Shown: in pieces, positions 1,876-41,944 of the stretch
Layout: each line of letters starts with the position of its first letter
Numbering within the stretch: position 1 is the stretch's first letter
Assembly: GCA_023954745.1 (NCBI GenBank)
Contig: JAGSHC010000001.1
Location: forward strand, 14,356 to 78,355
Direction of reading: 5' to 3'
Length of the DNA: 64,000 nucleotides
From: Deltaproteobacteria bacterium
GTDB lineage: Bacteria > Myxococcota_A > UBA796 > UBA9615
The notes under the pieces: model-generated
What the model was told of the DNA's origin: nothing
The model's input: the letters and a program-made list of their open reading frames with translations, nothing else
Databases searched by the model: none
Program-made: the position numbers and the translations under genes

Positions 1876-3767
1876 GTCCGTCTCCGGTGGGGGGCTAGAC
1901 CACCTCGAATCCGCGCGGCGACCAAGGCGAGGGCCGCCGGCGTCATGCCTGGAATCCGCGCCGCTGCATCGAGCGTCTCAGGACGGACGCGCCCCAGCTT
2001 CTCCACCAGCTCGTGACGCAGGCCGGGAATCCCGTGAAACACGAACTCCGCCGGGATCTTCAGGCCTCCCAGCTGCCGCACGCGCTCCACCTCGATCTCC
2101 TGACGGCGGATGTACCCCCGGTACCGGCACTGCACCACCACCTGGTCCACCTCGTCGTCTGTGAGGGTCGGGAGGGGGAGCTCCGCAGCGTGAGCCAAGG
2201 AGCGCAGCTCGAGGTTTGGCCGGCGAAGCAGCTCCGCCACCGAGCGTCGGTTCGTCACCGGCTGCTCCCCCTGCTCCACGAGCCACGCCGCGAGCCTTGG
2301 ACTCGGCTCCACCCGGGTGGCATCCGCCCACGCGATCCCTTGGTCCACCGCCGCTCGTCGAGCCAGGAAGCGGGTCCACCGTGCCTCGTCCACGAGCCCC
2401 ACGCGGCGGCCCGTGGGCGTCAGCCGCAGGTCGGCGTTGTCCTCCCGAAGGAGAAGTCGGAACTCCGCCCGGCTGGTGAACATGCGGTAGGGCTCGCTGG
2501 TCCCCTTCGTGGTCAGGTCGTCCACGAGCACACCGATGTAGGCCTCGTCACGTCGGAGCACCAGGGGCGGGTCCCCAGTGGCCGACAGCGCCGCGTTGAT
2601 CCCCGCGAGGATGCCCTGAGCGGCTGCCTCTTCGTAGCCGGTGGTCCCGTTGATCTGGCCCGCCAGCCAGAGGCCCTTCACCTCCCTCGACTGAAGGGTC
2701 GCGTCGAGCTGGCGGGGGTCCCCGTAGTCGTACTCGATGGCGTAGCCAGGCCGCACGATGCGCGCCTCCTCGAGGCCCTCCATCGTGTGAATCGCCGCGA
2801 CCTGCACCTCCACCGGCAAGCTCGTGCTGAACCCGTTGGGATACACCTCCCGCGTGGCGAGGCCTTCCGGCTCGAGGAACACCCGGTGGCTCGTCTTCTG
2901 GGGGAAACGGACGACCTTGTCCTCGATGGCCGGGCAGTACCGAGGGCCCACACCGTCGATGCTGGCGTCCGGCCCGTAGATCGGCGAGTGACGAAGACCG
3001 TCGCGGATGGCCTCATGGGTGGCCTCGTTGGTGGCAGTCACCCCGCAGCGAACCTGCGGAAGCGACGACGGAGCCCCGTGGAACGAGAACCGGCCGCCAG
3101 GATGATCACCCTCCTGCGGCGGCAGCCGAGCCCAGTCGATGGTGCGCCCGTCGAGGCGTGGAACCGTTCCGGTCTTGAGCCGGCCCAACCGGTGCCCCAG
3201 CCGCGTGAGTGCCGCAGAGAGACCCTCGGCCGCTGGAGCCCCGTTGCCCCCGCCAGGGCGCGCGTGAGTGCCCGTGTGCAGCCGTCCCCGCAGGTAGGTG
3301 CCGGTGGTCACGATGGCGGTACGGCATGGGATGACGCTGCCATCAGCGAGGCTCACGCCCACGAGCGTGAGATGTTCCACGAGAAACTCACGCGCCTCCC
3401 CCTGCACCACCGTGAGCCCCATCTGCTCACGGCACACCTGCGTCATGCGGCGCTGATACAGGTGCCGGTCCACCTGGCTGCGACTGCTGCGAGCAGCTAA
3501 ACCCTTGCGAGTATTGAGGAATTTAAACTGGACGCTCGTCTGATCGGCGGTGAGAGCCATCTGACCACCGAGGGCATCGATCTCCCGAACGAGGTGCCCC
3601 TTGGCCTGTCCACCGATGGCCGGATTGCATGGCATGCGGCCGATCCCGGACGCCCGGAGGGTGACCAACACCGTGGAACGACCCATGCGCGCCGAAGCGA
3701 GCGCCGCCTCGACTCCCGCATGTCCACCGCCAATCACGACGACATCGACCGTGTCCCGTCCACTCAT
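1872..3767 (-). CDS. mnmG: tRNA uridine 5-carboxymethylaminomethyl modification enzyme MnmG (GidA)
   Basis: ORF 1872..4010(-). The FAD-binding N-terminus [22 protein letters not shown] begins at the internal ATG (residue 82 of the track ORF), giving start 3767. The ~630 aa length is typical of MnmG. Confidence 0.93.
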
Positions 3768-3800
3768 GGCGCGGGAGGGTAACAGCCCGATCTGACGCCA

Positions 3801-3816
3801 TGTTTCACGGGAAACA
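3801..3816. promoter_or_regulatory. parS centromere-like site (TGTTTCACGGGAAACA, 15/16 to consensus TGTTTCACGTGAAACA)
   Basis: Read directly in the mnmE-mnmG intergenic region. It is a palindrome with a single central mismatch. Confidence 0.75.
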
Positions 3817-3818
3817 CG

Positions 3819-3834
3819 CATTTCACGTGAAACA
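3819..3834. promoter_or_regulatory. parS centromere-like site (cATTTCACGTGAAACA; 14-bp core ATTTCACGTGAAAC is 13/14 to GTTTCACGTGAAAC)
   Basis: It lies 2 bp after the first parS, so the two sites form a tandem pair ~2.7 kb from parAB. Confidence 0.75.
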
Positions 3835-8045: not shown

Positions 8046-8470
8046 GGCTCGTCCCTACTCCTCTTCGGGGCATTTGATTGCCCCCGACGATTCAACCAGC
8101 TGATGAGCTCGCCCAGTTCGGACTCGACGTCCGCAAGCTTCAGCGTCTGGGCGCCTTGCCTGGCGATGACCACCAGATCCCAGGGATGTGCCAGATCGTG
8201 GCGATGGTGTCGGTACCACTCCCGGAGTACGCGCTTGACCCGCGAACGGACCGGCGAATTCCCGACCTTCTTGCTTACCGTCAGGCCGACGCGCCCACCC
8301 GGATGATCAGGTGTGGATTGCGCCCAGGCGATCAGGAAGTGCTTCGTGCGAAAGGTGCGCGACCGCTTTCGGAGTTCTCGGTAATCCCGAGTCCGATGGA
8401 TCCGCACACTCCGCGGGAAGCGAGCGTCGGTCAGGCTACTTCGAGCTGATGGTCGGCACGAGGCTCTTAC
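8042..8470 (-). CDS. rnpA: Ribonuclease P protein component RnpA (start uncertain)
   Basis: Contains [28 protein letters not shown]...[25 protein letters not shown] (RnpA RNR motif). There is no in-frame ATG near the conserved N-terminus. Candidate starts are GTG codons inside the rpmH 3' end (8470 chosen) or a CTG at 8432-8434 right after the rpmH stop. Confidence 0.75.
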
Positions 8471-8585
8471 GCCCGCGACGACGGCGACGAGCCAAGATGG
8501 CGCGTCCGTTCTTGGTGGCCATGCGGGCACGGAATCCGTGGGTCCGCTTCCGCGAGATGTTCGACGGCTGGAAGGTGCGCTTCAT
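8436..8585 (-). CDS. rpmH: 50S ribosomal protein L34
   Basis: An internal ATG yields [49 protein letters not shown] (49 aa), a near-universal L34 sequence. Confidence 0.93.
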
Positions 8586-8825
8586 CGTTCGGCTCCGCCT
8601 ATTCGGGGTCTGGGTCGAAAGGCGCGCAAACGTATTGGAGGGTCGACGGGGTGTCAAGCATGCTCCGGTCGATCAATACGCCCCCCCGACCCCCCTCCCC
8701 ACGTCCGGTCTGGGCTCGTGACCTTTCGCCTATAGATACTCGCGCGCGAGCGCGCGCCCGCCGCGCGCGCCCGTCATTCGGATCGCTGGGCTGTTCGCTC
8801 GCCGGTCGAGACGACACTCCCTAGC

Positions 8826-8958
8826 GAGGGCGACGATCATCCAGGGGCGATCGCGACGATCGCTCAGAGGCGACGGCGACGATCATCCAGAGGCGATCGC
8901 GACGATCGTCCAGAGGCGATCGCGACGATCGTTCAGAGGCGATCGCGACGATCCTCCG
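8826..8958. repeat. Tandem direct repeat, 5 full + 1 partial copies of a 23-bp unit (consensus GAGGCGATCGCGACGATCGTCCA) in the rpmH-dnaA intergenic region
   Basis: Read directly. Units are at 8826-8843 (partial), 8844-8866, 8867-8889, 8890-8912, 8913-8935 and 8936-8958. Each unit carries GATC twice and a TCGTCCA/TCATCCA core. The overlapping ORF 8821..9369(-) is a repeat-translation artefact. Confidence 0.85.
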
Positions 8959-9416
8959 GACCTGGCCCGCGCGATTCTCTCCGACCGAACTCGGGGGGGT
9001 CCCAGGCCGCAGATCCGTTGAATGCCGGGAGGCTTCAATGATTCTCTGCGTCGTCGACCCACCAGCTCCCTGCGCCCAACCCCAGCGCCGCCCGAGTCGG
9101 TTTCGTCGGATTGTCCCCGCTGCGTCGAGCGTTTCCGGTCGGATCTCAAAAACACGTACAAATGGCGCACGCAAGTACCTGCGGGAGACCACCAAAATGT
9201 CACCCGTCCAACAGGGGTCGATTCCCATCCCCGAGGTGGCATGACTGAGTTTGAACCGGAATCTGGCGCCAGTCCCGGCGTAGATTCCCAGGTTCGCAGT
9301 GCGCTGTTTTCGCCACCGAAATCCAGCTTCAGAGCCGTTGCGGGGGGTGGGGGCCAGGGGTAGCTTCAAATTCCTCGGCGGCCTCCGGGGTCAATCTTCA
9401 AGAAACGGGATGCAAT

Positions 9417-10760
9417 TTGATGCTTCGTTCCACCTGGGACGAGGTCTGTGCCCGCGTGCGTCAGGTCGAAGACCCCTTCTTCCATGACCCGTGGCTGGAC
9501 CGCTTGACGTTCGTCGACGCTGACGAGGACAGGGTGATCCTGGCCACGCCAAATCGGCTCTACGTGGAGTGGATTCAGGAGAACCTCGAGCCGAAGCTCC
9601 TCGAGCATGTTCAGGCCGTCACTGCGCGGCCGTACCTGATCGACTACGAGCTCGATGCATCCGTGGGACCGGGTCGGGGACCCGCCTCCGCGCGCGTCGA
9701 GACGCCCGAACCCATCACTCCGGCCTACGACTCCCACTTGAACATCCGCCACAGCTTCGAGAGCTTTGTGGTCGGCAGTGGAAACCAGTTCGCGACCGCG
9801 GCGTGTCAGAACGTGGCGGACGCACCGGCGCGGAACTACAACCCTCTGTTTCTCTTTGGCGGTGTCGGCCTCGGCAAGACCCACCTCCTCCACGCAATCG
9901 GCAACCGAATCCTCCAGGGGAATCCTTCGGCTCGGGTGCTCTACCTCTCTGCGAACGACTTCACCACCGAACTCATCAACTGCATCCGGTTCAAGCGGAT
10001 GGAGGAGTTCCGGGAGAAGTTCCGGCGGAACTGCGACGTCCTGCTGATGGACGACATCGAGTTCCTTGCGGGCAAGGAGCGGACCCAGGAGGAGTTCTTC
10101 CACACGTTCGAGGCCCTCCACGGCAGCGGGCGTCAGATCGTGGTCACTGCGGACCGCTATCCGAAGGACATTCAGGGGCTCGAGGAGCGTCTTCGCAGCC
10201 GCTTCGACTGGGGGCTGGTTGCGGACATCCAGCCACCGGACACCGAGACCAAGGTCGCCATCCTTCGCCGCAAGGCCGACGAAGAGGCCATCGAGATCCC
10301 CAACGATGTGGCCTTCTTCGTCGCGCGGCATGCCAAGGGCAACGTGCGAGAACTCGAGGGGACGCTCACCCGCCTCCTGGCCATGAGCAGCTTCCACGCC
10401 GCGCCCATCACCGTGGAGTTCGCTCGCAAGAGCCTCAACGGCTACCTGCAGGTGGAAGCCCGGCACACGACCGTCGACACCATCCAGAGCGGGGTCGCCC
10501 GCTTCTTTGGAGTGAAGGTGCAGGACCTCAAGGGTCCTCGACGCACCAAGCAGGTCGTCATGCCCCGTCAGATCGCCATGTACCTGGCGCGCAAGCACAC
10601 TGGACTGTCGCTCCCCGAGATTGGGAAGCGCTTTGGGGGGCGGGACCACACCACGGTCCTTCACGCCGTCCGCAAGGTGAGTCGAGTGCGTGGAGATGAC
10701 CCCAACTACCGCTCGCGTCTCGACGGCGTCACAAGGTCGCTGGGACTACCACTGGAGTAG
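9417..10760 (+). CDS. dnaA: Chromosomal replication initiator protein DnaA
   Basis: 447 aa (TTG-ATG start). It has the AAA+ Walker A GGVGLGKTHLLHAIGN, Walker B LLMDDIEFL, and the C-terminal DNA-binding domain (...QIAMYLARKHTGLSLPEIGKRFGGRDHTTVLHAVRKV). Confidence 0.96.
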   Translation: MMLRSTWDEVCARVRQVEDPFFHDPWLDRLTFVDADEDRVILATPNRLYVEWIQENLEPKLLEHVQAVTARPYLIDYELDASVGPGRGPASARVETPEPITPAYDSHLNIRHSFESFVVGSGNQFATAACQNVADAPARNYNPLFLFGGVGLGKTHLLHAIGNRILQGNPSARVLYLSANDFTTELINCIRFKRMEEFREKFRRNCDVLLMDDIEFLAGKERTQEEFFHTFEALHGSGRQIVVTADRYPKDIQGLEERLRSRFDWGLVADIQPPDTETKVAILRRKADEEAIEIPNDVAFFVARHAKGNVRELEGTLTRLLAMSSFHAAPITVEFARKSLNGYLQVEARHTTVDTIQSGVARFFGVKVQDLKGPRRTKQVVMPRQIAMYLARKHTGLSLPEIGKRFGGRDHTTVLHAVRKVSRVRGDDPNYRSRLDGVTRSLGLPLE

Positions 10761-10787
10761 AGATTCGAGTCGCCTCGAGGGAGGCGT

Positions 10788-10817
10788 CTGGACCCTTCTG
10801 GTCCGGCCAAATTTTTT
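10788..10817 (+). terminator. Candidate intrinsic terminator downstream of dnaA (stem CTGGACC/GGTCCGG, then CCAAATTTTTT)
   Basis: A 7-bp stem with a 5-nt loop is followed within 5 nt by a T6 run, ~30 bp after the dnaA stop. A second short hairpin CGCCTCgaggGAGGCG lies at 10771-10786. Confidence 0.3.
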
Positions 10818-10859
10818 GCCCGCGGAGGTCGTTGGTCGAAGGAACCAATGTCTCCGCAC

Positions 10860-11110
10860 TGCTTTATCCGCATCACCCTGTGTACAAGTCGGTGGACATG
10901 CTGTTGAAGGGTCCGTGGACCAATTGTTAACGTTCGCACCTGCGAGCATCGATCTCGGTTATCCACGGAGATACACACCGGTGAATCCACCGGTTCTTCA
11001 CAGCAAATTACTGAGTCGTTGCAAGGAGTTCGGGGCCGTTTCCACAGAAACGCAGGCCTACAATCAACAACAAGAGATCAAAGAAAATGAGATCTCTTAT
11101 GAAGTGCATT
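10860..11110. promoter_or_regulatory. Candidate oriC: DnaA-box cluster plus AT-rich DNA unwinding element in the dnaA-dnaN intergenic region
   Basis: Seven DnaA-box-like 9-mers were read directly: TTATCCGCA (10864-10872), TGTGTACAA (10879-10887), GGTGGACAT (10891-10899, revcomp ATGTCCACC), GTGGACCAA (10915-10923), TTATCCACG (10959-10967), TGAATCCAC (10982-10990) and GTTTCCACA (11038-11046). Each matches TTATCCACA/TTGTCCACA at 7-8 of 9 positions. They are followed by a low-GC stretch CAATCAACAACAAGAGATCAAAGAAAATGAGATCTCTTATGAAGTGCATT (11061-11110) immediately upstream of dnaN. Confidence 0.55.
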
Positions 11111-11144
11111 GAGCGGCACCGAGCCGCCTGGAGCGTGTGACCCC

Positions 11145-33815: not shown

Positions 33816-34157
33816 TCAGTCGTCGCCCTTGGAGTCGTCGTCACCCGAGTCGTCATCGTCACCCGAGTCGTCGTCGTCACCCGTCGCGTCATCGTCGTCG
33901 TCGTCGCCCTTGGAGTCGTCGTCGTCGCCCGTCGCGTCGTCGTCATCGTCGCCCGTCGCGTCGTCGTCATCAGTGATCGGGTCGTCGTCTTCGGCCCCCA
34001 CGATGGCGTCCGCCGAGTCGTCGTCGTCCCGTCCCCCAGAGGGGTTTGAGCCCGGAGGTCCAGCGGGGAATGGGTAGCCCGAACCACCGCAGGCCGCGAC
34101 GAAGAGAACAAGGATGAGAAGAACGAAGAACGAGCGCATGGAGGCATGCTGGCACAC
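33816..34157 (-). CDS. Small lipoprotein with a ~70-aa poly-aspartate repeat tail (DDDDATGDDDD-type repeats)
   Basis: Signal peptide/lipobox MRSFFVLLILVLFVAAC (ATG at 34139, or 34157). The mature part is almost entirely D4-5 blocks separated by ATG/SG/SKG, encoded by (GTC)n/(GAC)n trinucleotide runs. It is divergent from the STAND regulator with 23-41 bp between start codons. Confidence 0.6.
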   Translation of the reverse strand: MCQHASMRSFFVLLILVLFVAACGGSGYPFPAGPPGSNPSGGRDDDDSADAIVGAEDDDPITDDDDATGDDDDDATGDDDDSKGDDDDDDATGDDDDSGDDDDSGDDDSKGDD

Positions 34158-34180: not shown

Positions 34181-37021
34181 ATGCCCGAACTCATCCTGGG
34201 AGACACGAAGATCGACCTCTCCAACGGTCTCGTGACCGGCCCGGGGGGGGAGTTCACCCTCACTCCCCGAGAGCACACCCTCATCGAGATCCTCGCCTTG
34301 GTGCCAGGCCAGGTGGTGTCCCGCCAGCAGCTTGCTGGGGAGGGGCCAACCCGCGCCGCGGACATGGCGTTGAGCCGGCTTCGTCGTCGGCTCGGCGAGG
34401 CGGGTCGCCACATCGCGACCGTCCGAGGAGTTGGCTATCGACTCGAGCTGGGTGGTGAGGCGGTCCTGGACCTCGGGTGGGGACGGCTGGACCTGCCGGG
34501 TCGCACGGTGCGCGTCGGCGAGAGCCGGACGCGGCTCTCACCTCAAAGCGCTCGTCTGTTGGACCTGCTTGCTCAGACGCCGGGGCGCCCCGTTCCTCGG
34601 ACCACCCTGGCTCGGGAGTTGTGGGGCAGCGCCTCGGAGCAAGCGCGGTTGGACGTCGCCGTGCATCGACTGCGGCAGGGCCTCGAGCTCGACCCGGCGC
34701 AGCCTCGGTTCGTGGTGTCGGTCCCCGAGAGAGGTCTGGTCCTCCTGGATGCGCGGCTCGCCCGACAGAGCCACGTCCGCCCGCGCGCTGCTGCCTTGCT
34801 GGGGCGGGACCAGCTCCTTCGTCGGATCCTCCAGGTGCTGGAGAGCTCCCACGCGCGGCTGATGCTTCAGGGTCCACCGGGAATCGGGAAGTCCGCGTTG
34901 GCGACGGCCGTCGCTGCGCGTTGGCTGCTCCACGCGGGTCGGAGTCATCACGCCATCGACCTGCACGGAAGCGGCTCGGTCACCGAGGCGGAAGCGCGGC
35001 TGGCCGCATCCCTGGGCATGGAGGACGTAGGAGATGACGAGGCGCTCTCCAGGTCCCTGGCAGCTCGGGGCGCGCTTCTCCTCGTCTTCGATGGGGACCC
35101 GCCGGCAGAGTTCGCCGCCCGCCTCGCACGGATCGCCGACCTCACGAAGTCACTGCGCCTCCTGGTGGCCGGACGGCGCACGCTCCCCAGCTACGACACC
35201 CTCGTTGTCGACGGGCTCTCCATCGAAGCGGCGACGACGCTCCTCGAGCGGAGGGCCGGCCGCTCTCTGGTGGGAGTCGACGCGCGACTGGTGGGGCGTC
35301 TCCAGGGCAATCCCCTGGCCATCGAGCTGGTGGGGAGTCGACTTCGGGGCGGCTCTGACGCTCGCCTCGCTCGAGATCTCGACCTGCCACTCATTCCATT
35401 GCGCCGTGCCTGGAGGACCGCGCTCGAGCCTCTCTCGGACGAAGTGCGCCGAGTTGCAGCCCACGCCAGTCGGTTCCACCGACCGTTCAGTGTCGAAGAC
35501 CTTGCGGCGGTCGTGGATCTGTCGCTCGAGGAGGCAGGGCGGCATGCGGGGCACCTCGTGGCCGAGTCGGTGTTCCGGGTCGTGCCAGGGGGCACGCTCG
35601 CCGTTCCTCACGCCGCACGCGAGTTCCTCGCCGGTGAGGCGCGTTGGTTGCCGCGGGCGAGGTACCAGGTCCGCTGTCTCGATGTGCTCGCGCAGCTCGT
35701 CGCGGATGTGCCGAGGCTCGGTGGCGCGGCGATGAGGACCCTCGAGCAGCGATGGCCGGACCTGCGCCGGGGCCTCGACGCCGCGACGGCAGCCAAGGGG
35801 ATGCCGCTCCTGGCGAGCTTGGCCCGGGAGACGGCGGAGCGGATCCCACGGGCCCGCGCCGACGGGTTCGCGGAGCAGCTCCTCTCTGGCGCGGAGGACT
35901 CGTCCCTCTCGGGTCTCACCCGGGCGAGCTGCTTGAGGGGAGTCCACGCGATGCGTTGGTCGCGTCAGAGCCGAGCTGAGCGGGAGCAGCTCCTGCGCAC
36001 AGCGCTCGAGTTGGCCAACCACGATGGGACTGTCGCTGCAGGAGTGGCCGCGGAGTTGGCGAGCATCGTGGCGTTCTCGTGGGGGCTGGACGAGGCGCGG
36101 CGTCTCCTGGATGACCATCCGCTCCCCAGCGACGCCCCCGCTGCCGACCGCGTCGCGCGCTACCGCCACGAGGGCCGGCTCGGGGTCTACGCCGGCAAGC
36201 CCGGTCAGGGGTTGGCCCGACTGCGCGAGGCCGTGCAGCTCGCCTCCGATGAGGAGCTTCCCCTGCTCGAAGCCCGATGCCGGATGGCTCTCGGTCAGGC
36301 GCTGAGCGTGGGAACCCTCGGGCGAGAGGCAGAACACCATCTGCACCGCGCGATGGCGCTGACCCACGACCATGAGCTGCCTGAGCAGCATGTGAGGGCG
36401 ACGCTCCGCCTCGCCCAGCATCTCCTCCGCCTGGGCTTGCGCTCAGACTCCCAGGAGCTGCTGGACTCGGCCCTCGACTCGGCGGTGCGGGCGGGTCTCC
36501 TCCGGCTCGAAGAGCAATGCGCCTCCACGCTCGGCTTCCTGCGCATCGGGACCGAGGACTTCACCGCTGCGCTGGCGAACCTCGACCGCGCAATCACCCT
36601 CAGCGAACGCCACGGCGGGCAGCGGGCGTTGTACGTGGCCCTCGCAAATCGGGGGCTCGCCCTCGCGCTCTCCGGCCGCCCCGGGCAGGCGCGGCAGGAC
36701 CTCGACGCCGCCCTCGGCAGTGCCCGAGGAGGGGGTGGCTGGTATCGCGTCCTGGGGCTGTCGTACCGCGCGGTCGCCGAGCTTCTCGATGGGGATGGCG
36801 CCGCCGCGATCAGCACGGTCGCTGAAGCTCGCGAGACCCTGGTGGAGCAAGAGCACAGCTCGGCCGCATCGCTGGACGAAGCCCTCGGCGTTCTCGACGG
36901 TCTCGCTCGATCCCGTCTCTCTCCCGACCATGTCCAGGCCTGGTGCGGAGCGTGGGGAGGGGGAGCGGAGGTGGAGGGCGTCGTCGCTGGCCTGAGGAGG
37001 GCTGTTACAAACGGAAAGTAG
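34181..37021 (+). CDS. Large STAND-class transcriptional regulator: two tandem OmpR/PhoB-type winged-helix DNA-binding domains + NB-ARC/AAA+ ATPase + C-terminal TPR-like region (AfsR/SARP-like architecture)
   Basis: 946 aa. wHTH 1 is ...LTPREHTLIEILALVPGQVVSRQQL...VRGVGYRLEL; wHTH 2 is ...RLSPQSARLLDLLAQTPGRPVPRTTLARELW...AVHRLRQGLE. The P-loop is LLGRDQLLRRILQVLESSHARLMLQGPPGIGKSALATAVAA, followed by a long helical, Ala/Leu/Arg-rich repeat region. Confidence 0.8.
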   Translation: MPELILGDTKIDLSNGLVTGPGGEFTLTPREHTLIEILALVPGQVVSRQQLAGEGPTRAADMALSRLRRRLGEAGRHIATVRGVGYRLELGGEAVLDLGWGRLDLPGRTVRVGESRTRLSPQSARLLDLLAQTPGRPVPRTTLARELWGSASEQARLDVAVHRLRQGLELDPAQPRFVVSVPERGLVLLDARLARQSHVRPRAAALLGRDQLLRRILQVLESSHARLMLQGPPGIGKSALATAVAARWLLHAGRSHHAIDLHGSGSVTEAEARLAASLGMEDVGDDEALSRSLAARGALLLVFDGDPPAEFAARLARIADLTKSLRLLVAGRRTLPSYDTLVVDGLSIEAATTLLERRAGRSLVGVDARLVGRLQGNPLAIELVGSRLRGGSDARLARDLDLPLIPLRRAWRTALEPLSDEVRRVAAHASRFHRPFSVEDLAAVVDLSLEEAGRHAGHLVAESVFRVVPGGTLAVPHAAREFLAGEARWLPRARYQVRCLDVLAQLVADVPRLGGAAMRTLEQRWPDLRRGLDAATAAKGMPLLASLARETAERIPRARADGFAEQLLSGAEDSSLSGLTRASCLRGVHAMRWSRQSRAEREQLLRTALELANHDGTVAAGVAAELASIVAFSWGLDEARRLLDDHPLPSDAPAADRVARYRHEGRLGVYAGKPGQGLARLREAVQLASDEELPLLEARCRMALGQALSVGTLGREAEHHLHRAMALTHDHELPEQHVRATLRLAQHLLRLGLRSDSQELLDSALDSAVRAGLLRLEEQCASTLGFLRIGTEDFTAALANLDRAITLSERHGGQRALYVALANRGLALALSGRPGQARQDLDAALGSARGGGGWYRVLGLSYRAVAELLDGDGAAAISTVAEARETLVEQEHSSAASLDEALGVLDGLARSRLSPDHVQAWCGAWGGGAEVEGVVAGLRRAVTNGK

Positions 37022-37056: not shown

Positions 37057-38652
37057 ATGCTTCGAGTCCATCACATTCCGCTGGCGCTACTGGTTCTGGG
37101 TCTCGGCTGCGTGCCCGAGCCCGCCGAGGTTCCGGAGCCCTACGACGACGGCGAACCCGACGACAGCTACACCGACGACGACGACGCGACTGACTACCCG
37201 ACCGACGACGACGACGCCACCAGCGACGACGACGACATGGCGGGCGACGACGACGACGACGCCACCAGCGACGACGACGACCTGGCGGGAGACGACGACG
37301 ACGACGTCGAGCCGCCACCGGAGGACGGCGACGGCGATGCCTGCCTGGACGCGTTCGAGGCGACGACGACGGCGTTCGTCTCGGCGGACGACAGCAACTC
37401 CCAGGCAGACCCCGTGCACAACCAGGGCCTCGTGTCCGGTGGCGTGCGGCCCTCGTCTGCCAAGGCCTGGGAGTACCTCAACTACGCCGAGTTCGACTTC
37501 GCTCCCGCGTCGGCGGGGAGCATTCGTATTGAGCCCCAGCTCCTGGAGCATCCCTCCGAGCCGGGTCGCTATGACCTGATGGTCGCGGTGGTGGCGCCGG
37601 ACCTCGACCCGACGGCTCGCGAGCCAATGAATCTCGTGTTCGCCGTGGACACGTCCTGCTCCATGAGCGGCTCGAGTCTCGCTGCAGCGAAGCAGACACT
37701 CGAGGCCATTGCTGGAAGCCTCGAAGGCGACGACGTCGTCTCCATCGTGCAATGGAGCTACAGCACGGGCCTGGTCCTCGACTCCCATCCTGTCACGGGG
37801 CCCGACGACATCACGCTCCTCAACGCCATCGACGGGCTCAGCACCGGCGGCGGGACGAACCTCAACGGTGGCCTCATGGCCGGGTTTGAGCTCGCTCAGG
37901 ACAACTACCTGCCGTCCCGGACGAACCGGGTGGTGCTGATCTCCGACGGCGGAGCGAACGCAGGCGTCACGAGCATCGACCTCATCGCCCAGAACGCCGC
38001 CTACGGGACGGACGAGGGGATCTTCCTCGCTGGGATCGGGGTTCCGCCGGCCAACGGCTACAACGACACCCTGATGGACGACGTCACCGACGCGGGGAAG
38101 GGCTCGTACTTCTACGTCGACTCGGAGGGCGAAGCGGAGGCCCAGTTCTCCCCCGAGGGGCTGCTGCGCGCCTTCGAGGTGGCTGCCCTCGACGTGCAGC
38201 TGGCGATCACGCTCCCTCCGGGCTTCGTCATCGACGAGTTCTCAGGGGAAGAGATTGGCTGGACGCCGAGCGCGGTGGAGCCGCAGAACCTCTCGCCCAA
38301 CGACCAGATGCTCTACGAGATGGATGTGGTGGACTGCTCCGCAGACGCGGACTCCCTCGCTCACGAGTTCGTCTTCACCGTGGAGTGGATTGAGCCGGAG
38401 ACGGGCATCGCCCGCGTCGACTCCGTCACGACCAGCCTGGGCCAGTTGATGGCCGAGCCGGGACGCGAGCTCGCAAAGGCGCGGGCTCTGGTGAGTCTCG
38501 CCGAGGTGGCCAACGCTCCATGGGGCGACCAGGGCGGCGAGCTCGACAGCGCGATCAGCGAGCTCCAGACCGCGTCATCGGCGCTGCCGGCAGACCCCGA
38601 CCTGGGCTGGTTCATCGACCACGCCCAGGACTGGCGAGCGCTGATTCCCTGA
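37057..38652 (+). CDS. Lipoprotein with N-terminal poly-aspartate repeat linker and a von Willebrand factor A (vWA) domain
   Basis: The ATG at 37057 is preceded by AAGGAGG. The signal/lipobox is MLRVHHIPLALLVLGLGC. Poly-Asp repeats follow (DDDDATDYPTDDDDATSDDDDMAGDDDDDATSDDDDLAGDDDDD), then a vWA MIDAS region (LVFAVDTSCSMSG...T...LISDGGANAG). Confidence 0.8.
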   Translation: MLRVHHIPLALLVLGLGCVPEPAEVPEPYDDGEPDDSYTDDDDATDYPTDDDDATSDDDDMAGDDDDDATSDDDDLAGDDDDDVEPPPEDGDGDACLDAFEATTTAFVSADDSNSQADPVHNQGLVSGGVRPSSAKAWEYLNYAEFDFAPASAGSIRIEPQLLEHPSEPGRYDLMVAVVAPDLDPTAREPMNLVFAVDTSCSMSGSSLAAAKQTLEAIAGSLEGDDVVSIVQWSYSTGLVLDSHPVTGPDDITLLNAIDGLSTGGGTNLNGGLMAGFELAQDNYLPSRTNRVVLISDGGANAGVTSIDLIAQNAAYGTDEGIFLAGIGVPPANGYNDTLMDDVTDAGKGSYFYVDSEGEAEAQFSPEGLLRAFEVAALDVQLAITLPPGFVIDEFSGEEIGWTPSAVEPQNLSPNDQMLYEMDVVDCSADADSLAHEFVFTVEWIEPETGIARVDSVTTSLGQLMAEPGRELAKARALVSLAEVANAPWGDQGGELDSAISELQTASSALPADPDLGWFIDHAQDWRALIP

Positions 38653-41137: not shown

Positions 41138-41944
41138 CTACTTGCCCCCCTGTCCGTTGTCCGAGCCACCACCGCGATTCGCGTCACGGCGGGCCTTGCC
41201 GGCTGACTCGCTCGGCTTCCCGGCGTTCTTGTCGTTGGAGTCCTTGCGCGCCTTGCCGGCGCTCTCCGGCTTGTTGGCGTCCTTGCGCGCCTTGCCGCGG
41301 GACTCCGAGGGCTTCCCGGCAGAGCGATCGTCGGGCGCCTTCTTCGCGTCGTCCGCCATGTCCTTGCCCTTGGCCTGGCCTTCTCCAGCCATGTCCTTGC
41401 CCTTGGCCATGTCCTTGCCCTTGGCCATGTCCTTGCCCTTGGCCTGGCCTTCGCCCGCCATGTCCTTGCCCTGGCCGCGCCCGGTCCAGGTGCCGGCCTC
41501 CTTTGCGGCCTTCTTCGCCTCGCGACGCACCTGGTTCTCGGCCTTGATGGCCGTCGCGAGGTCCTGGCCCTTCTTCCCCTCGTCGAGCTGGGTCTTCACC
41601 CAACTGCCGAAGTTGCCTTCCCAGGCGTCTCCGTCGCCCTTGCTCTGGGCGGCGTCGAGCACCTCTCCCGCTTCGCTCGCGTCGAGCCCAGCGCCCTTGA
41701 CCGCGTCGATGGCGCCAGCCACCTCGTCGTCGGCCATCCCGCTCTCGCGCAGCTCCTTGGCCTTCGAGGGCAGGTCAATGGCGTCCATCAGGCGCTTCTG
41801 GGCGTCCGCGGACATCGCGGCGCCCTTGGCGCTGGCGTCGGCGGTGGCCTCGGCCTTCTTCTCTTCGTGGTGGTCCGCCAGAGCCGGCGTGGCCCACAGG
41901 GCGGCGGCTGCGAGCAGCCAGAGTCGTGTCTTCATCTTCGTCAT
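41138..41944 (-). CDS. Secreted low-complexity Lys-rich repeat protein
   Basis: 268 aa with signal peptide MTKMKTRLWLLAAAALWATPALA. Tandem KGKDMA/GEGQAKGKDMA repeats (nt ~41354-41470) are followed by AGKPSES(R/A)GKAR(K/R)D(A/S)N repeats (nt ~41177-41323). Confidence 0.5.
   Translation of the reverse strand: MTKMKTRLWLLAAAALWATPALADHHEEKKAEATADASAKGAAMSADAQKRLMDAIDLPSKAKELRESGMADDEVAGAIDAVKGAGLDASEAGEVLDAAQSKGDGDAWEGNFGSWVKTQLDEGKKGQDLATAIKAENQVRREAKKAAKEAGTWTGRGQGKDMAGEGQAKGKDMAKGKDMAKGKDMAGEGQAKGKDMADDAKKAPDDRSAGKPSESRGKARKDANKPESAGKARKDSNDKNAGKPSESAGKARRDANRGGGSDNGQGGK

What the first reader, a model, noticed from the sequence alone, without database searches (positions are those of the whole stretch)
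8826..8958. Array of six 23-bp tandem repeats with paired GATC sites in the rpmH-dnaA spacer
Five full and one partial head-to-tail copies of GAGGCGATCGCGACGATCGTCCA sit ~460 bp upstream of dnaA. The 23-bp period is close to two helical turns, so every copy presents the same face. Each copy carries two GATC tetranucleotides and a TCGTCCA/TCATCCA core resembling a DnaA-box half (7/9 to TTGTCCACA). I would not expect this from ordinary intergenic DNA. It looks like a phased protein-binding array, and candidates are auxiliary DnaA sites controlling the dnaA promoter, a second origin module, or a binding platform for an origin-sequestration or segregation factor. Array length could also vary by slippage between strains.
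Basis: seen in the sequence. Interest (0 to 1): 0.6.

Follow-up and report, generated by a model that had tools for sequence, protein, structure and literature searches.

The report
Unstable GATC-rich minisatellite upstream of dnaA
The 23-bp repeat array is real, but it is a fast-changing, species-specific minisatellite in the least-constrained part of the rpmH–dnaA spacer, not a DnaA-box or origin module; the one unusual feature is that this segment is GATC-rich across related species.

Summary
The array is real: window 8826-8958, period 23, five full copies plus one partial, 10 GATC in 133 bp, unique within the 64 kb. It lies 461 bp upstream of dnaA in the rpmH-dnaA spacer of an uncultured marine 'Deltaproteobacteria' MAG.

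It is not a DnaA or origin module.
- Only 2 of 6 copies reach 7/9 to a DnaA box, and the box-like tail is the most variable part of the unit.
- The conserved DnaA-box cluster and AT-rich region lie in the dnaA-dnaN spacer.
- Canonical parS sites lie 5 kb away.

Ten related species share conserved blocks at both ends of the spacer but differ in the middle. The closest relative has no array. One has an 11-bp array (GATCGGCGGGG x14.5) and its sister a different 23-bp array (x2.6). Two have scattered repeats and five have none. A second assembly of the same population has one unit fewer.

Best reading: a slippage-generated minisatellite (VNTR) in the unconstrained middle of a divergent promoter region.

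One point stays open. GATC is the most enriched 4-mer in this segment across the family, even with arrays collapsed (35 vs 10.5 expected). A methylation- or GATC-reader-dependent role at dnaA is therefore possible but untested.

The parts
8826..8958 (.). Tandem array: one partial (c1) and five full 23-bp units, consensus GAGGCGATCGCGACGATCGTCCA. It holds 10 GATC and 7 CGATCG. Columns G.GGCGA..GCGACGATC are invariant; the 5-nt tail (GTCCA/GCTCA/ATCCA/GTTCA/CTCCG) varies.
8756..9155 (.). Hypervariable middle segment of the rpmH-dnaA spacer. It cannot be aligned between related species, ranges from 62 to 400 bp among them, and is GATC-rich in most. The array lies inside it.
8733..8757 (.). Conserved distal module TAGATAC + CGCGCGCGAGCGCGCGC (GC palindrome) on the left edge of the variable segment. 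In relative L122 its centre reads GATC (GCGCGATCGCGC). Role unknown.
8629..8657 (-). Conserved putative rpmH promoter on the minus strand: TTGACA (8652-8657), 17 nt, TACGTT (8629-8634). Inferred from sequence and conservation only.
   Evidence: read from sequence
8436..8585 (-). rpmH (ribosomal protein L34, 49 aa). rnpA, yidD, yidC, jag, mnmE, mnmG, rsmG and parA follow on the same strand.
9150..9419 (+). Conserved ~270-bp dnaA-proximal non-coding block. It contains a putative promoter TTGCGG (9338-9343), N17, TAGCTT (9361-9366) and a leader hairpin with compensatory changes. The array therefore lies ~380-510 bp upstream of this promoter.
   Evidence: promoter inferred
9420..10760 (+). dnaA, 100% identical to MCO4768405.1 from a 'Deltaproteobacteria bacterium' MAG.
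10761..11144 (.). Probable oriC in the dnaA-dnaN spacer. It has conserved DnaA boxes (TTATCCGCA 10864, TTGTACACA 10879 on the minus strand, TTATCCACG 10959 and others) and an AT-rich stretch at 11060-11105 with two conserved GATC. It is not part of the array but is the real DnaA-box cluster.

Best explanation
The array is a lineage-specific minisatellite (VNTR). A short GATC-bearing motif was first duplicated into a 9+14 bp unit, and that 23-bp unit was then amplified by replication slippage or unequal recombination.

It sits in the middle of the divergent rpmH-dnaA promoter region. That position lies between the conserved rpmH-proximal and dnaA-proximal regulatory blocks, where sequence and length are almost unconstrained. 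In related species the same segment is deleted, filled with unrelated sequence, or occupied by other arrays.

The array is not part of oriC, not a DnaA-box cluster and not a ParB site. Its only likely effect (inferred) is to change the length and GATC density of the DNA upstream of the dnaA promoter.

Shown here: the array, its uniqueness in the window, its absence or replacement in relatives, the copy-number difference, the location of the DnaA boxes and parS, and the family-wide GATC enrichment. Inferred: the slippage mechanism and the lack of an essential function.
For: Conserved flanks, variable middle:
- The spacers of 10 related species (DnaA 73-89% identical) align well at both ends but not in the middle. 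Spacer length runs from 374 to 834 bp.

Rapid turnover on the DnaA tree:
- The window's sister L120 has no tandem repeat.
- The sister pair L122 and L131 (93% identical DnaA) carry different arrays: 11 bp x14.5 and 23 bp x2.6.
- L126, L127, L143, L146 and L148 have none.

Copy-number variation:
- L125 (identical DnaA, 0 mismatches in 5.3 kb downstream) has c3-c5-c6, that is, no c4. The junction k-mer spans the diagnostic bases, so a simple repeat collapse cannot produce it. Two SNPs lie just beside the array.
- Short-read contigs of two species end inside their arrays.

Architecture typical of slippage:
- The unit has an internal sub-repeat, the central copies are the most alike, and the edge copies are degenerate.

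No sign of another kind of element:
- The period is not a multiple of 3.
- Folding is unremarkable (z = -0.9 as DNA, -0.8 as RNA).
- There is no Rfam family and no match in plasmids or phages.

DnaA boxes and parS lie elsewhere.
Against: - GATC is the single most enriched 4-mer in the variable segment across the 10 species. This holds with arrays collapsed to one unit (35 observed vs 10.5 expected, P about 2e-9).
- It also holds in species without a TRF-detected tandem array: L136 has 7 vs 1.45 expected, L139 6 vs 1.6, L143 4 vs 1.0.
- All of the most widely shared 6- and 7-mers contain GATC.
- Purely neutral DNA at this divergence should have lost such a signal. It would persist only if arrays are continually regenerated from relics, or if GATC density is selected.
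- Array periods of 11, 23 and 23 bp, plus a 24-bp direct repeat in L139, are near one or two helical turns. This is suggestive, but the arrays are probably homologous and so are not independent observations.
Confidence: 0.6

Rival explanations
1. GATC-density platform. The lineage methylates GATC, or has a GATC-reading protein. The GATC cluster upstream of dnaA would then be bound after replication, like SeqA on the hemimethylated E. coli dnaA promoter, to delay dnaA transcription or re-initiation. Selection would act on the number of GATC sites, not on the sequence, and tandem duplication of a GATC-bearing unit is the easy way to raise that number.
For: - The array holds 10 GATC in 133 bp (75 per kb) against 5.1 per kb for the window. 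It is by far the densest cluster in the 64 kb.
- GATC is the top enriched 4-mer in the equivalent segment across 10 species after collapsing arrays. No longer motif is shared.
- Two GATC in the AT-rich part of the putative oriC are conserved in 10 of 11 species.
- The E. coli dnaA promoter has 9 GATC in 225 bp and is sequestered (PMC5835720).
Against: - Three of the ten species (L120, L126, L127) have only one GATC in the segment and 3-4 in the whole spacer.
- oriC is only 1.7x enriched in GATC, against about 10x in E. coli.
- GATC observed/expected in the window is 0.80, similar to other palindromes.
- There is no DNA methyltransferase among the window's genes.
- A marine metaepigenome study found no methylated motifs in its three Deltaproteobacteria MAGs (PMC8919816). 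Those MAGs are not known to belong to this lineage.
- GATC spacing outside the arrays shows no helical phasing.
- The array is ~380-510 bp from the predicted dnaA promoter.
Confidence: 0.2
2. Array of low-affinity DnaA sites. Weak 9-mers in the units would nucleate a DnaA-ATP oligomer that autoregulates dnaA, titrates DnaA (like datA), or forms a second half of a bipartite origin.
For: - c3 and c4 carry 7/9 matches, TCATCCAGA and TCGTCCAGA.
- The distant relative L139 has GATCGTCCACACG, an 8/9 box, near the same place.
- The 11-bp period of the L122 array equals a 9-mer plus 2 bp, the spacing of E. coli low-affinity arrays (from my own knowledge, not tested here).
Against: - No site in the spacer has <=1 mismatch. 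7/9 matches occur 169 times in the window (2.6 per kb), so one chance match amplified by duplication explains them.
- The box-like tail is the most variable part of the unit, while GGCGA..GCGACGATC is invariant.
- All conserved boxes in this lineage's oriC keep the CCAC/CAC core, which the units lack (CCAG).
- The array is absent from the sister species. The L125 variant lacks exactly the c4 copy with the better match.
Confidence: 0.07
3. Iteron-like or operator array for another sequence-specific protein. One candidate is whatever binds the conserved GC palindrome at 8741-8757, whose L122 version GCGCGATCGCGC matches the GCGATCGCG core of the unit. ParB is another candidate.
For: - The unit core GGCGATCGCGA resembles the conserved palindrome as it reads in L122.
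- The direct repeats have a ~2-turn period next to an initiator gene.
Against: - The units of L122 (GGGGATCGGCG) and L131 (CCGATCGTCTGGG...) share only GATCG with the window's unit.
- The array is absent in about half of the relatives.
- The unit has no resemblance to parS, and canonical parS sites lie at 3373-3834.
- There is no AT-rich unwinding element beside the array.
Confidence: 0.08

Closest known systems
Bacterial VNTR / minisatellites in intergenic DNA (for example MIRU-VNTR loci of Mycobacterium tuberculosis)
   Same: Head-to-tail non-coding units of tens of bp. Copy number differs between close strains. Related species lack the array or carry a different one. Short-read assemblies break inside it.
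   Different: It sits in the rpmH-dnaA promoter region next to the origin. Its units, and the segment in related species, are unusually rich in GATC.
GATC clusters of the E. coli dnaA promoter and oriC (Dam methylation / SeqA sequestration)
   Same: A very high GATC density directly upstream of dnaA: 10 in 133 bp here, 9 in 225 bp in E. coli (PMC5835720). dnaA lies next to the origin.
   Different: The organism is an uncultured marine deltaproteobacterium-like lineage, not a gammaproteobacterium. No Dam or SeqA is known for it. Its oriC is barely GATC-enriched. The cluster is made by tandem duplication and is missing in several relatives. It lies ~400 bp from the predicted promoter rather than over it.
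Iterons of plasmids and Vibrio cholerae chromosome 2 (GATC-containing 11/12-mers bound by RctB)
   Same: Direct repeats with a period near one or two helical turns, each with a GATC, beside an initiator gene.
   Different: Iterons are conserved and essential, sit next to an AT-rich unwinding element, and have a cognate Rep protein. This array is not conserved, has no adjacent AT-rich element, and the initiator here is DnaA with ordinary boxes elsewhere.
DnaA-box clusters outside oriC (datA, DARS, dnaA promoter boxes; bipartite origins of B. subtilis and H. pylori)
   Same: Position upstream of dnaA, and weak resemblance of two units to a DnaA box.
   Different: No site has <=1 mismatch. The box-like part is the variable part of the unit. 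It is not conserved in relatives. The real cluster is in the dnaA-dnaN spacer.
HIP1 (GCGATCGC) of cyanobacteria
   Same: Four of the units contain the octamer GCGATCGC.
   Different: HIP1 is dispersed genome-wide at high frequency. Outside the array this window has only 4 copies against 4.8 expected, and the organism is not a cyanobacterium.

Membership tests
VNTR / minisatellite | Head-to-tail copies of a 10-100 bp non-coding unit | tested here: met
   5.6 copies of 23 bp, TRF score 193. The period is not a multiple of 3.
VNTR / minisatellite | Copy number polymorphic between closely related genomes | tested here: met
   L125 (identical DnaA, 0 mismatches in 5.3 kb) lacks unit c4. Caveat: there is one comparison only, and that contig ends in the array.
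VNTR / minisatellite | Not conserved in related species (absent or replaced) | tested here: met
   None of nine related species has this array. Two have other arrays, two have scattered repeats, five have none.
DnaA-box cluster / origin module | Several 9-mers close to TTATCCACA (<=1-2 mismatches, keeping the stringent TT.T.CACA positions) | tested here: not met
   Best is 7/9 in 2 of 6 copies, with mismatches at positions 2 and 8. There are 0 sites with <=1 mismatch in the whole spacer, against 4 in the dnaA-dnaN spacer.
DnaA-box cluster / origin module | Conserved in related species and next to an AT-rich unwinding element | tested here: not met
   The array is absent in relatives. The conserved boxes and the AT-rich stretch are at 10761-11144.
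Dam/SeqA-type GATC cluster | GATC density far above the genome average | tested here: met
   75 per kb in the array against 5.1 per kb in the window. It is the densest 150-bp window in the 64 kb.
Dam/SeqA-type GATC cluster | GATC cluster maintained across relatives and also at oriC | tested here: inconclusive
   The variable segment is 3.3x enriched family-wide, but three species have a single site. oriC is only 1.7x enriched.
Dam/SeqA-type GATC cluster | Genome encodes a GATC adenine methyltransferase and a hemimethylated-GATC binding protein; GATC is methylated | not testable with these tools
   No methyltransferase among the genes of the 64-kb window.
Iterons | Phased direct repeats bound by a cognate Rep initiator, adjacent to an AT-rich region, required for replication | tested here: not met
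   The period is 23 bp (69 degrees of rotation per unit). There is no adjacent AT-rich element and no rep gene; the neighbours are rpmH and dnaA. The array is not conserved. Protein binding was not testable.
parS / ParB platform | 16-bp palindrome TGTTNCACGTGAAACA | tested here: not met
   The pattern search (<=3 mismatches) found nothing in the array. Three parS-like sites with 1-2 mismatches lie at 3373-3834 (9 strand-hits against 0.41 expected).
Structured RNA / known RNA family | Match to an Rfam model, or folding more stable than shuffles | tested here: not met
   No Rfam hit over the array. Folding z-scores are -0.9 and -0.8.

The most novel reading that the evidence does not exclude
The GATC-rich variable segment upstream of dnaA could be a composition-selected platform for a GATC methylation or reader system. 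That would be a Dam/SeqA-like control of dnaA in an uncultured marine deltaproteobacterial (Myxococcota-like) lineage. Tandem arrays such as this one would be the evolutionary means of tuning the number of GATC sites, which would explain why different species hold different arrays that all carry GATC at the same spot.
Probability: 0.17. Interest if true: 0.6.

Novelty: new member of a known kind. Interest (0 to 1): 0.27.

Why it matters
As a minisatellite it matters little for biology. It does have practical uses: it is a strain marker for this uncultured lineage, and it is a place where short-read assemblies break beside the origin.

It also sets the origin architecture straight. oriC is in the dnaA-dnaN spacer, parS is at the mnmE/mnmG junction, and the dnaA promoter block is proximal to the gene.

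The GATC enrichment would matter more if it proved functional. It would then be a case of replication-coupled, methylation-dependent control of dnaA outside the Gammaproteobacteria, and an example of selection on site density rather than on sequence.

Tried and rejected
- Dispersed repeat. The one-unit pattern RGGCGATCGCGACGATCNNYCA was scanned in 185,579 species genomes. No fetched locus held two adjacent units. These are chance occurrences and do not point to a repeat family. The window itself has no other copy.
- Mobile element. There was no match in plasmids or phages.
- RNA element. There was no Rfam hit and no unusual folding. The AsdA hit at 9855-9916 is below threshold (26.7 vs 52 bits) and lies inside dnaA.
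- Coding repeat. Rejected because the period of 23 is not a multiple of 3, and the overlapping 182-aa ORF on the minus strand (8821-9369) spans unconserved DNA.
- ParB, DnaA and iteron readings. See the membership tests.
- R-M avoidance or enrichment of GATC. Observed/expected is 0.80, which is unremarkable.
- Methyltransferase in the window. None was found.
- Lost to tools. The single metagenome scan with DnaA failed with an error and was still counted. The look-up of the window's RpmH found no record. No further relatives or strains could therefore be fetched.
- Helical phasing of GATC outside the arrays. None is apparent.

Full report
**Observation**

Window 8826-8958 holds a head-to-tail array with a 23-bp period. 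TRF reports 8830-8957, 5.6 copies, 85% matches, score 193. The consensus GAGGCGATCGCGACGATCGTCCA matches five times with <=3 mismatches at exact 23-bp steps. It matches nowhere else in the 64 kb, and none of 100 shuffles gave a match. A partial sixth copy lies at 8826-8843.

The six copies are:
- c1 (partial): ..GAGG-GCGACGATCATCCA
- c2: GGGGCGATCGCGACGATCGCTCA
- c3: GAGGCGACGGCGACGATCATCCA
- c4: GAGGCGATCGCGACGATCGTCCA
- c5: GAGGCGATCGCGACGATCGTTCA
- c6: GAGGCGATCGCGACGATCCTCCG

Four of the six copies have two GATC; c1 and c3 have one. The 10 GATC in 133 bp make this the densest GATC cluster in the window, which averages 5.1 per kb. The invariant columns are G.GGCGA..GCGACGATC.

**Context**

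The window is the canonical origin region: parA, rsmG, mnmG, mnmE, jag, yidC, yidD, rnpA and rpmH on the minus strand, then dnaA, dnaN, recF, gyrB ... gyrA on the plus strand. Its DnaA is 100% identical to MCO4768405.1 from a MAG labelled 'Deltaproteobacteria bacterium'. The nearest relatives come from marine metagenomes. The array ends 461 bp upstream of the dnaA ATG at 9420.

**Where the DnaA boxes and parS really are**

No 9-mer in the rpmH-dnaA spacer has <=1 mismatch to TT[A/G/T]TCCACA. The dnaA-dnaN spacer has four such sites in 348 bp.

That spacer is strongly conserved in all relatives. Its boxes keep a CCAC/CAC core, and it has an AT-rich stretch (CAATCAACAACAAGAGATCAA...AGATCTC) just before dnaN. 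This is the probable oriC.

In the array only c3 and c4 reach 7/9. Matches of 7/9 or better occur 169 times in the window (2.6 per kb), so one chance match copied by duplication explains them.

Three parS-like sites with 1-2 mismatches lie at 3373-3834. That is 9 strand-hits against 0.41 expected. The array is therefore not the ParB platform.

**Comparison with relatives**

I fetched the region from nine related species through their DnaA proteins. I also fetched one further assembly of the same population.

The spacers align well at both ends:
- The rpmH-proximal end has GGTCGAAAGGCGCGCAAA, a TTGACA-N17-TACGTT promoter-like element on the minus strand, and a TAGATAC + CGCGCGAGCGCGCGC palindrome.
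- The dnaA-proximal end is a ~270-bp block.

The middle cannot be aligned and varies from 62 to 400 bp. In that middle segment:

| Locus | Content of the middle segment |
|---|---|
| window | 23 bp x5.6 |
| L122 | 11 bp GATCGGCGGGG x14.5 |
| L131 | 23 bp CCGATCGTCTGGGAACTTTTAAA x2.6 |
| L136, L139 | scattered 57- and 24-bp direct repeats |
| L120, L126, L127, L143, L146, L148 | no repeat |

On a DnaA tree the window's sister (L120) has no array. The sister pair L122/L131 (93% identity) carry different arrays. Shared fragments such as GATCGCTCAGA (window and L122), GATCGT.TGGG (L122 and L131) and GATCCAGAG (L143) suggest a common GATC-bearing ancestor motif, remodelled repeatedly.

**Variation within the species**

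L125 has an identical DnaA and no mismatch in the 5.3 kb downstream. Its contig starts inside the array, reads c3-c5-c6 (no c4), and has two SNPs in the 80 bp next to the array. The c3-to-c5 junction is spanned by a k-mer that does not exist in the window, so this is a real variant rather than a simple collapse. It is, however, a single observation.

Short-read contigs of the L122 species also end inside their array. The short 2.6-copy array of L131 is identical in five assemblies.

**What it is not**

- Not coding: the period is 23.
- Not a known RNA.
- Not unusually structured: z = -0.9 and -0.8.
- Not found in plasmids or phages.
- Not a dispersed family: single units occur once each in >=119 unrelated high-GC genomes and never in tandem.
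- Not truly in helical phase: 23 bp is 2.19 turns, about 69 degrees of rotation per unit.

**Most likely explanation (confidence 0.6)**

The array is a slippage-generated minisatellite in the least constrained part of a divergent promoter region. It is gained, remodelled and lost faster than species diverge.

The predicted dnaA promoter (TTGCGG 9338-9343, N17, TAGCTT 9361-9366) and its leader hairpin, which shows compensatory changes, lie in the conserved proximal block. That places them 380-510 bp from the array, so direct promoter control by the array is unlikely (inference).

**The residue that is not explained**

GATC is the most enriched 4-mer in the variable segment across the ten species, 54 observed against 12.5 expected. 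With each array collapsed to one unit it is still 35 against 10.5 (P about 2e-9). Species without tandem arrays show the enrichment too: L136 has 7 vs 1.45, L139 6 vs 1.6, L143 4 vs 1.0. The most widely shared 6- and 7-mers all contain GATC, and no longer motif is shared.

This pattern resembles the E. coli dnaA promoter, which has 9 GATC in 225 bp and is sequestered by SeqA when hemimethylated (PMC5835720; PMC5145175).

Several points count against a functional reading:
- Three species have a single GATC in the segment.
- oriC is only 1.7x enriched.
- GATC observed/expected in the window is an unremarkable 0.80.
- No methyltransferase is encoded in the window.
- Three marine Deltaproteobacteria MAGs in a metaepigenome study showed no methylated motif (PMC8919816).

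Continual regeneration of arrays from GATC-bearing relics could give the same pattern without selection. I rate the functional GATC-platform reading at about 0.2.

**Verdict**

The DnaA, second-origin and ParB interpretations are not supported. Slippage variability is supported. A GATC-dependent role remains possible but untested. This is a new member of a known kind (bacterial VNTR), of low to moderate interest. One testable lead remains: family-wide GATC enrichment upstream of dnaA.

Noticed in passing
window 3373-3388, 3801-3816, 3819-3834: Three parS-like sites (TGTTNCACGTGAAACA, 1-2 mismatches; 9 strand-hits against 0.41 expected) lie at the mnmE/mnmG junction, upstream of rsmG-parA. This is the likely ParB loading site, about 5 kb from the array.
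   Followed up: partly
window 10761-11144: The dnaA-dnaN spacer is conserved in all 10 relatives. It has at least six DnaA-box-like elements and an AT-rich stretch (11060-11105) containing two conserved GATC (AGAGATCAA, AGATCTC). This is the probable oriC.
   Followed up: partly
window 9150-9419: A ~270-bp non-coding block upstream of dnaA is strongly conserved. Invariant elements are CAAAT.GCG.AC.CAA, two TTCCCA(T) motifs 63 bp apart, and a hairpin GGAAT..GCGCC..GGCGC..ATTCC. It also has a promoter-like TTGCGG-N17-TAGCTT (9338-9366) and a leader hairpin CCTCGG/CCGGGG with compensatory changes in L122 and L126.
   Followed up: partly
window 8733-8775: A conserved TAGATAC + CGCGCGCGAGCGCGCGC palindrome lies on the left edge of the variable segment. 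In this genome it is extended by a local duplication into a 30-bp alternating CG tract (TRF period 2, 15.5 copies). In L122 the centre of the palindrome is GATC.
   Followed up: no
window 8669-8676 and the equivalent positions in L120, L122, L127, L131, L136: A GATC (mostly in the context GATCGA) is conserved about 15-25 bp beyond the rpmH -35-like element (TTGACA on the minus strand) in most relatives.
   Followed up: no
L122 3493-3650; L131 2022-2080: Related species carry different arrays at the same spot: 11-bp GATCGGCGGGG x14.5 with 33-bp variants, and 23-bp CCGATCGTCTGGGAACTTTTAAA x2.6. Logan contigs L123 and L124 end inside the L122-type array.
   Followed up: yes
window 33819-33993, 37143-37310, 41355-41503: There are several coding-type tandem repeats (periods 18, 24, 45 and 69; GTC/CGA-rich, suggesting acidic or low-complexity protein repeats) in genes with no Pfam match or only a partial one. 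One is the 946-aa Trans_reg_C protein at 34181-37021.
   Followed up: no
window 9855-9916 (-): A sub-threshold Rfam hit to AsdA, the antisense RNA of dnaA mRNA (26.7 bits against a gathering score of 52, E = 0.008), lies inside the dnaA coding region. It is probably due to dnaA sequence conservation.
   Followed up: no
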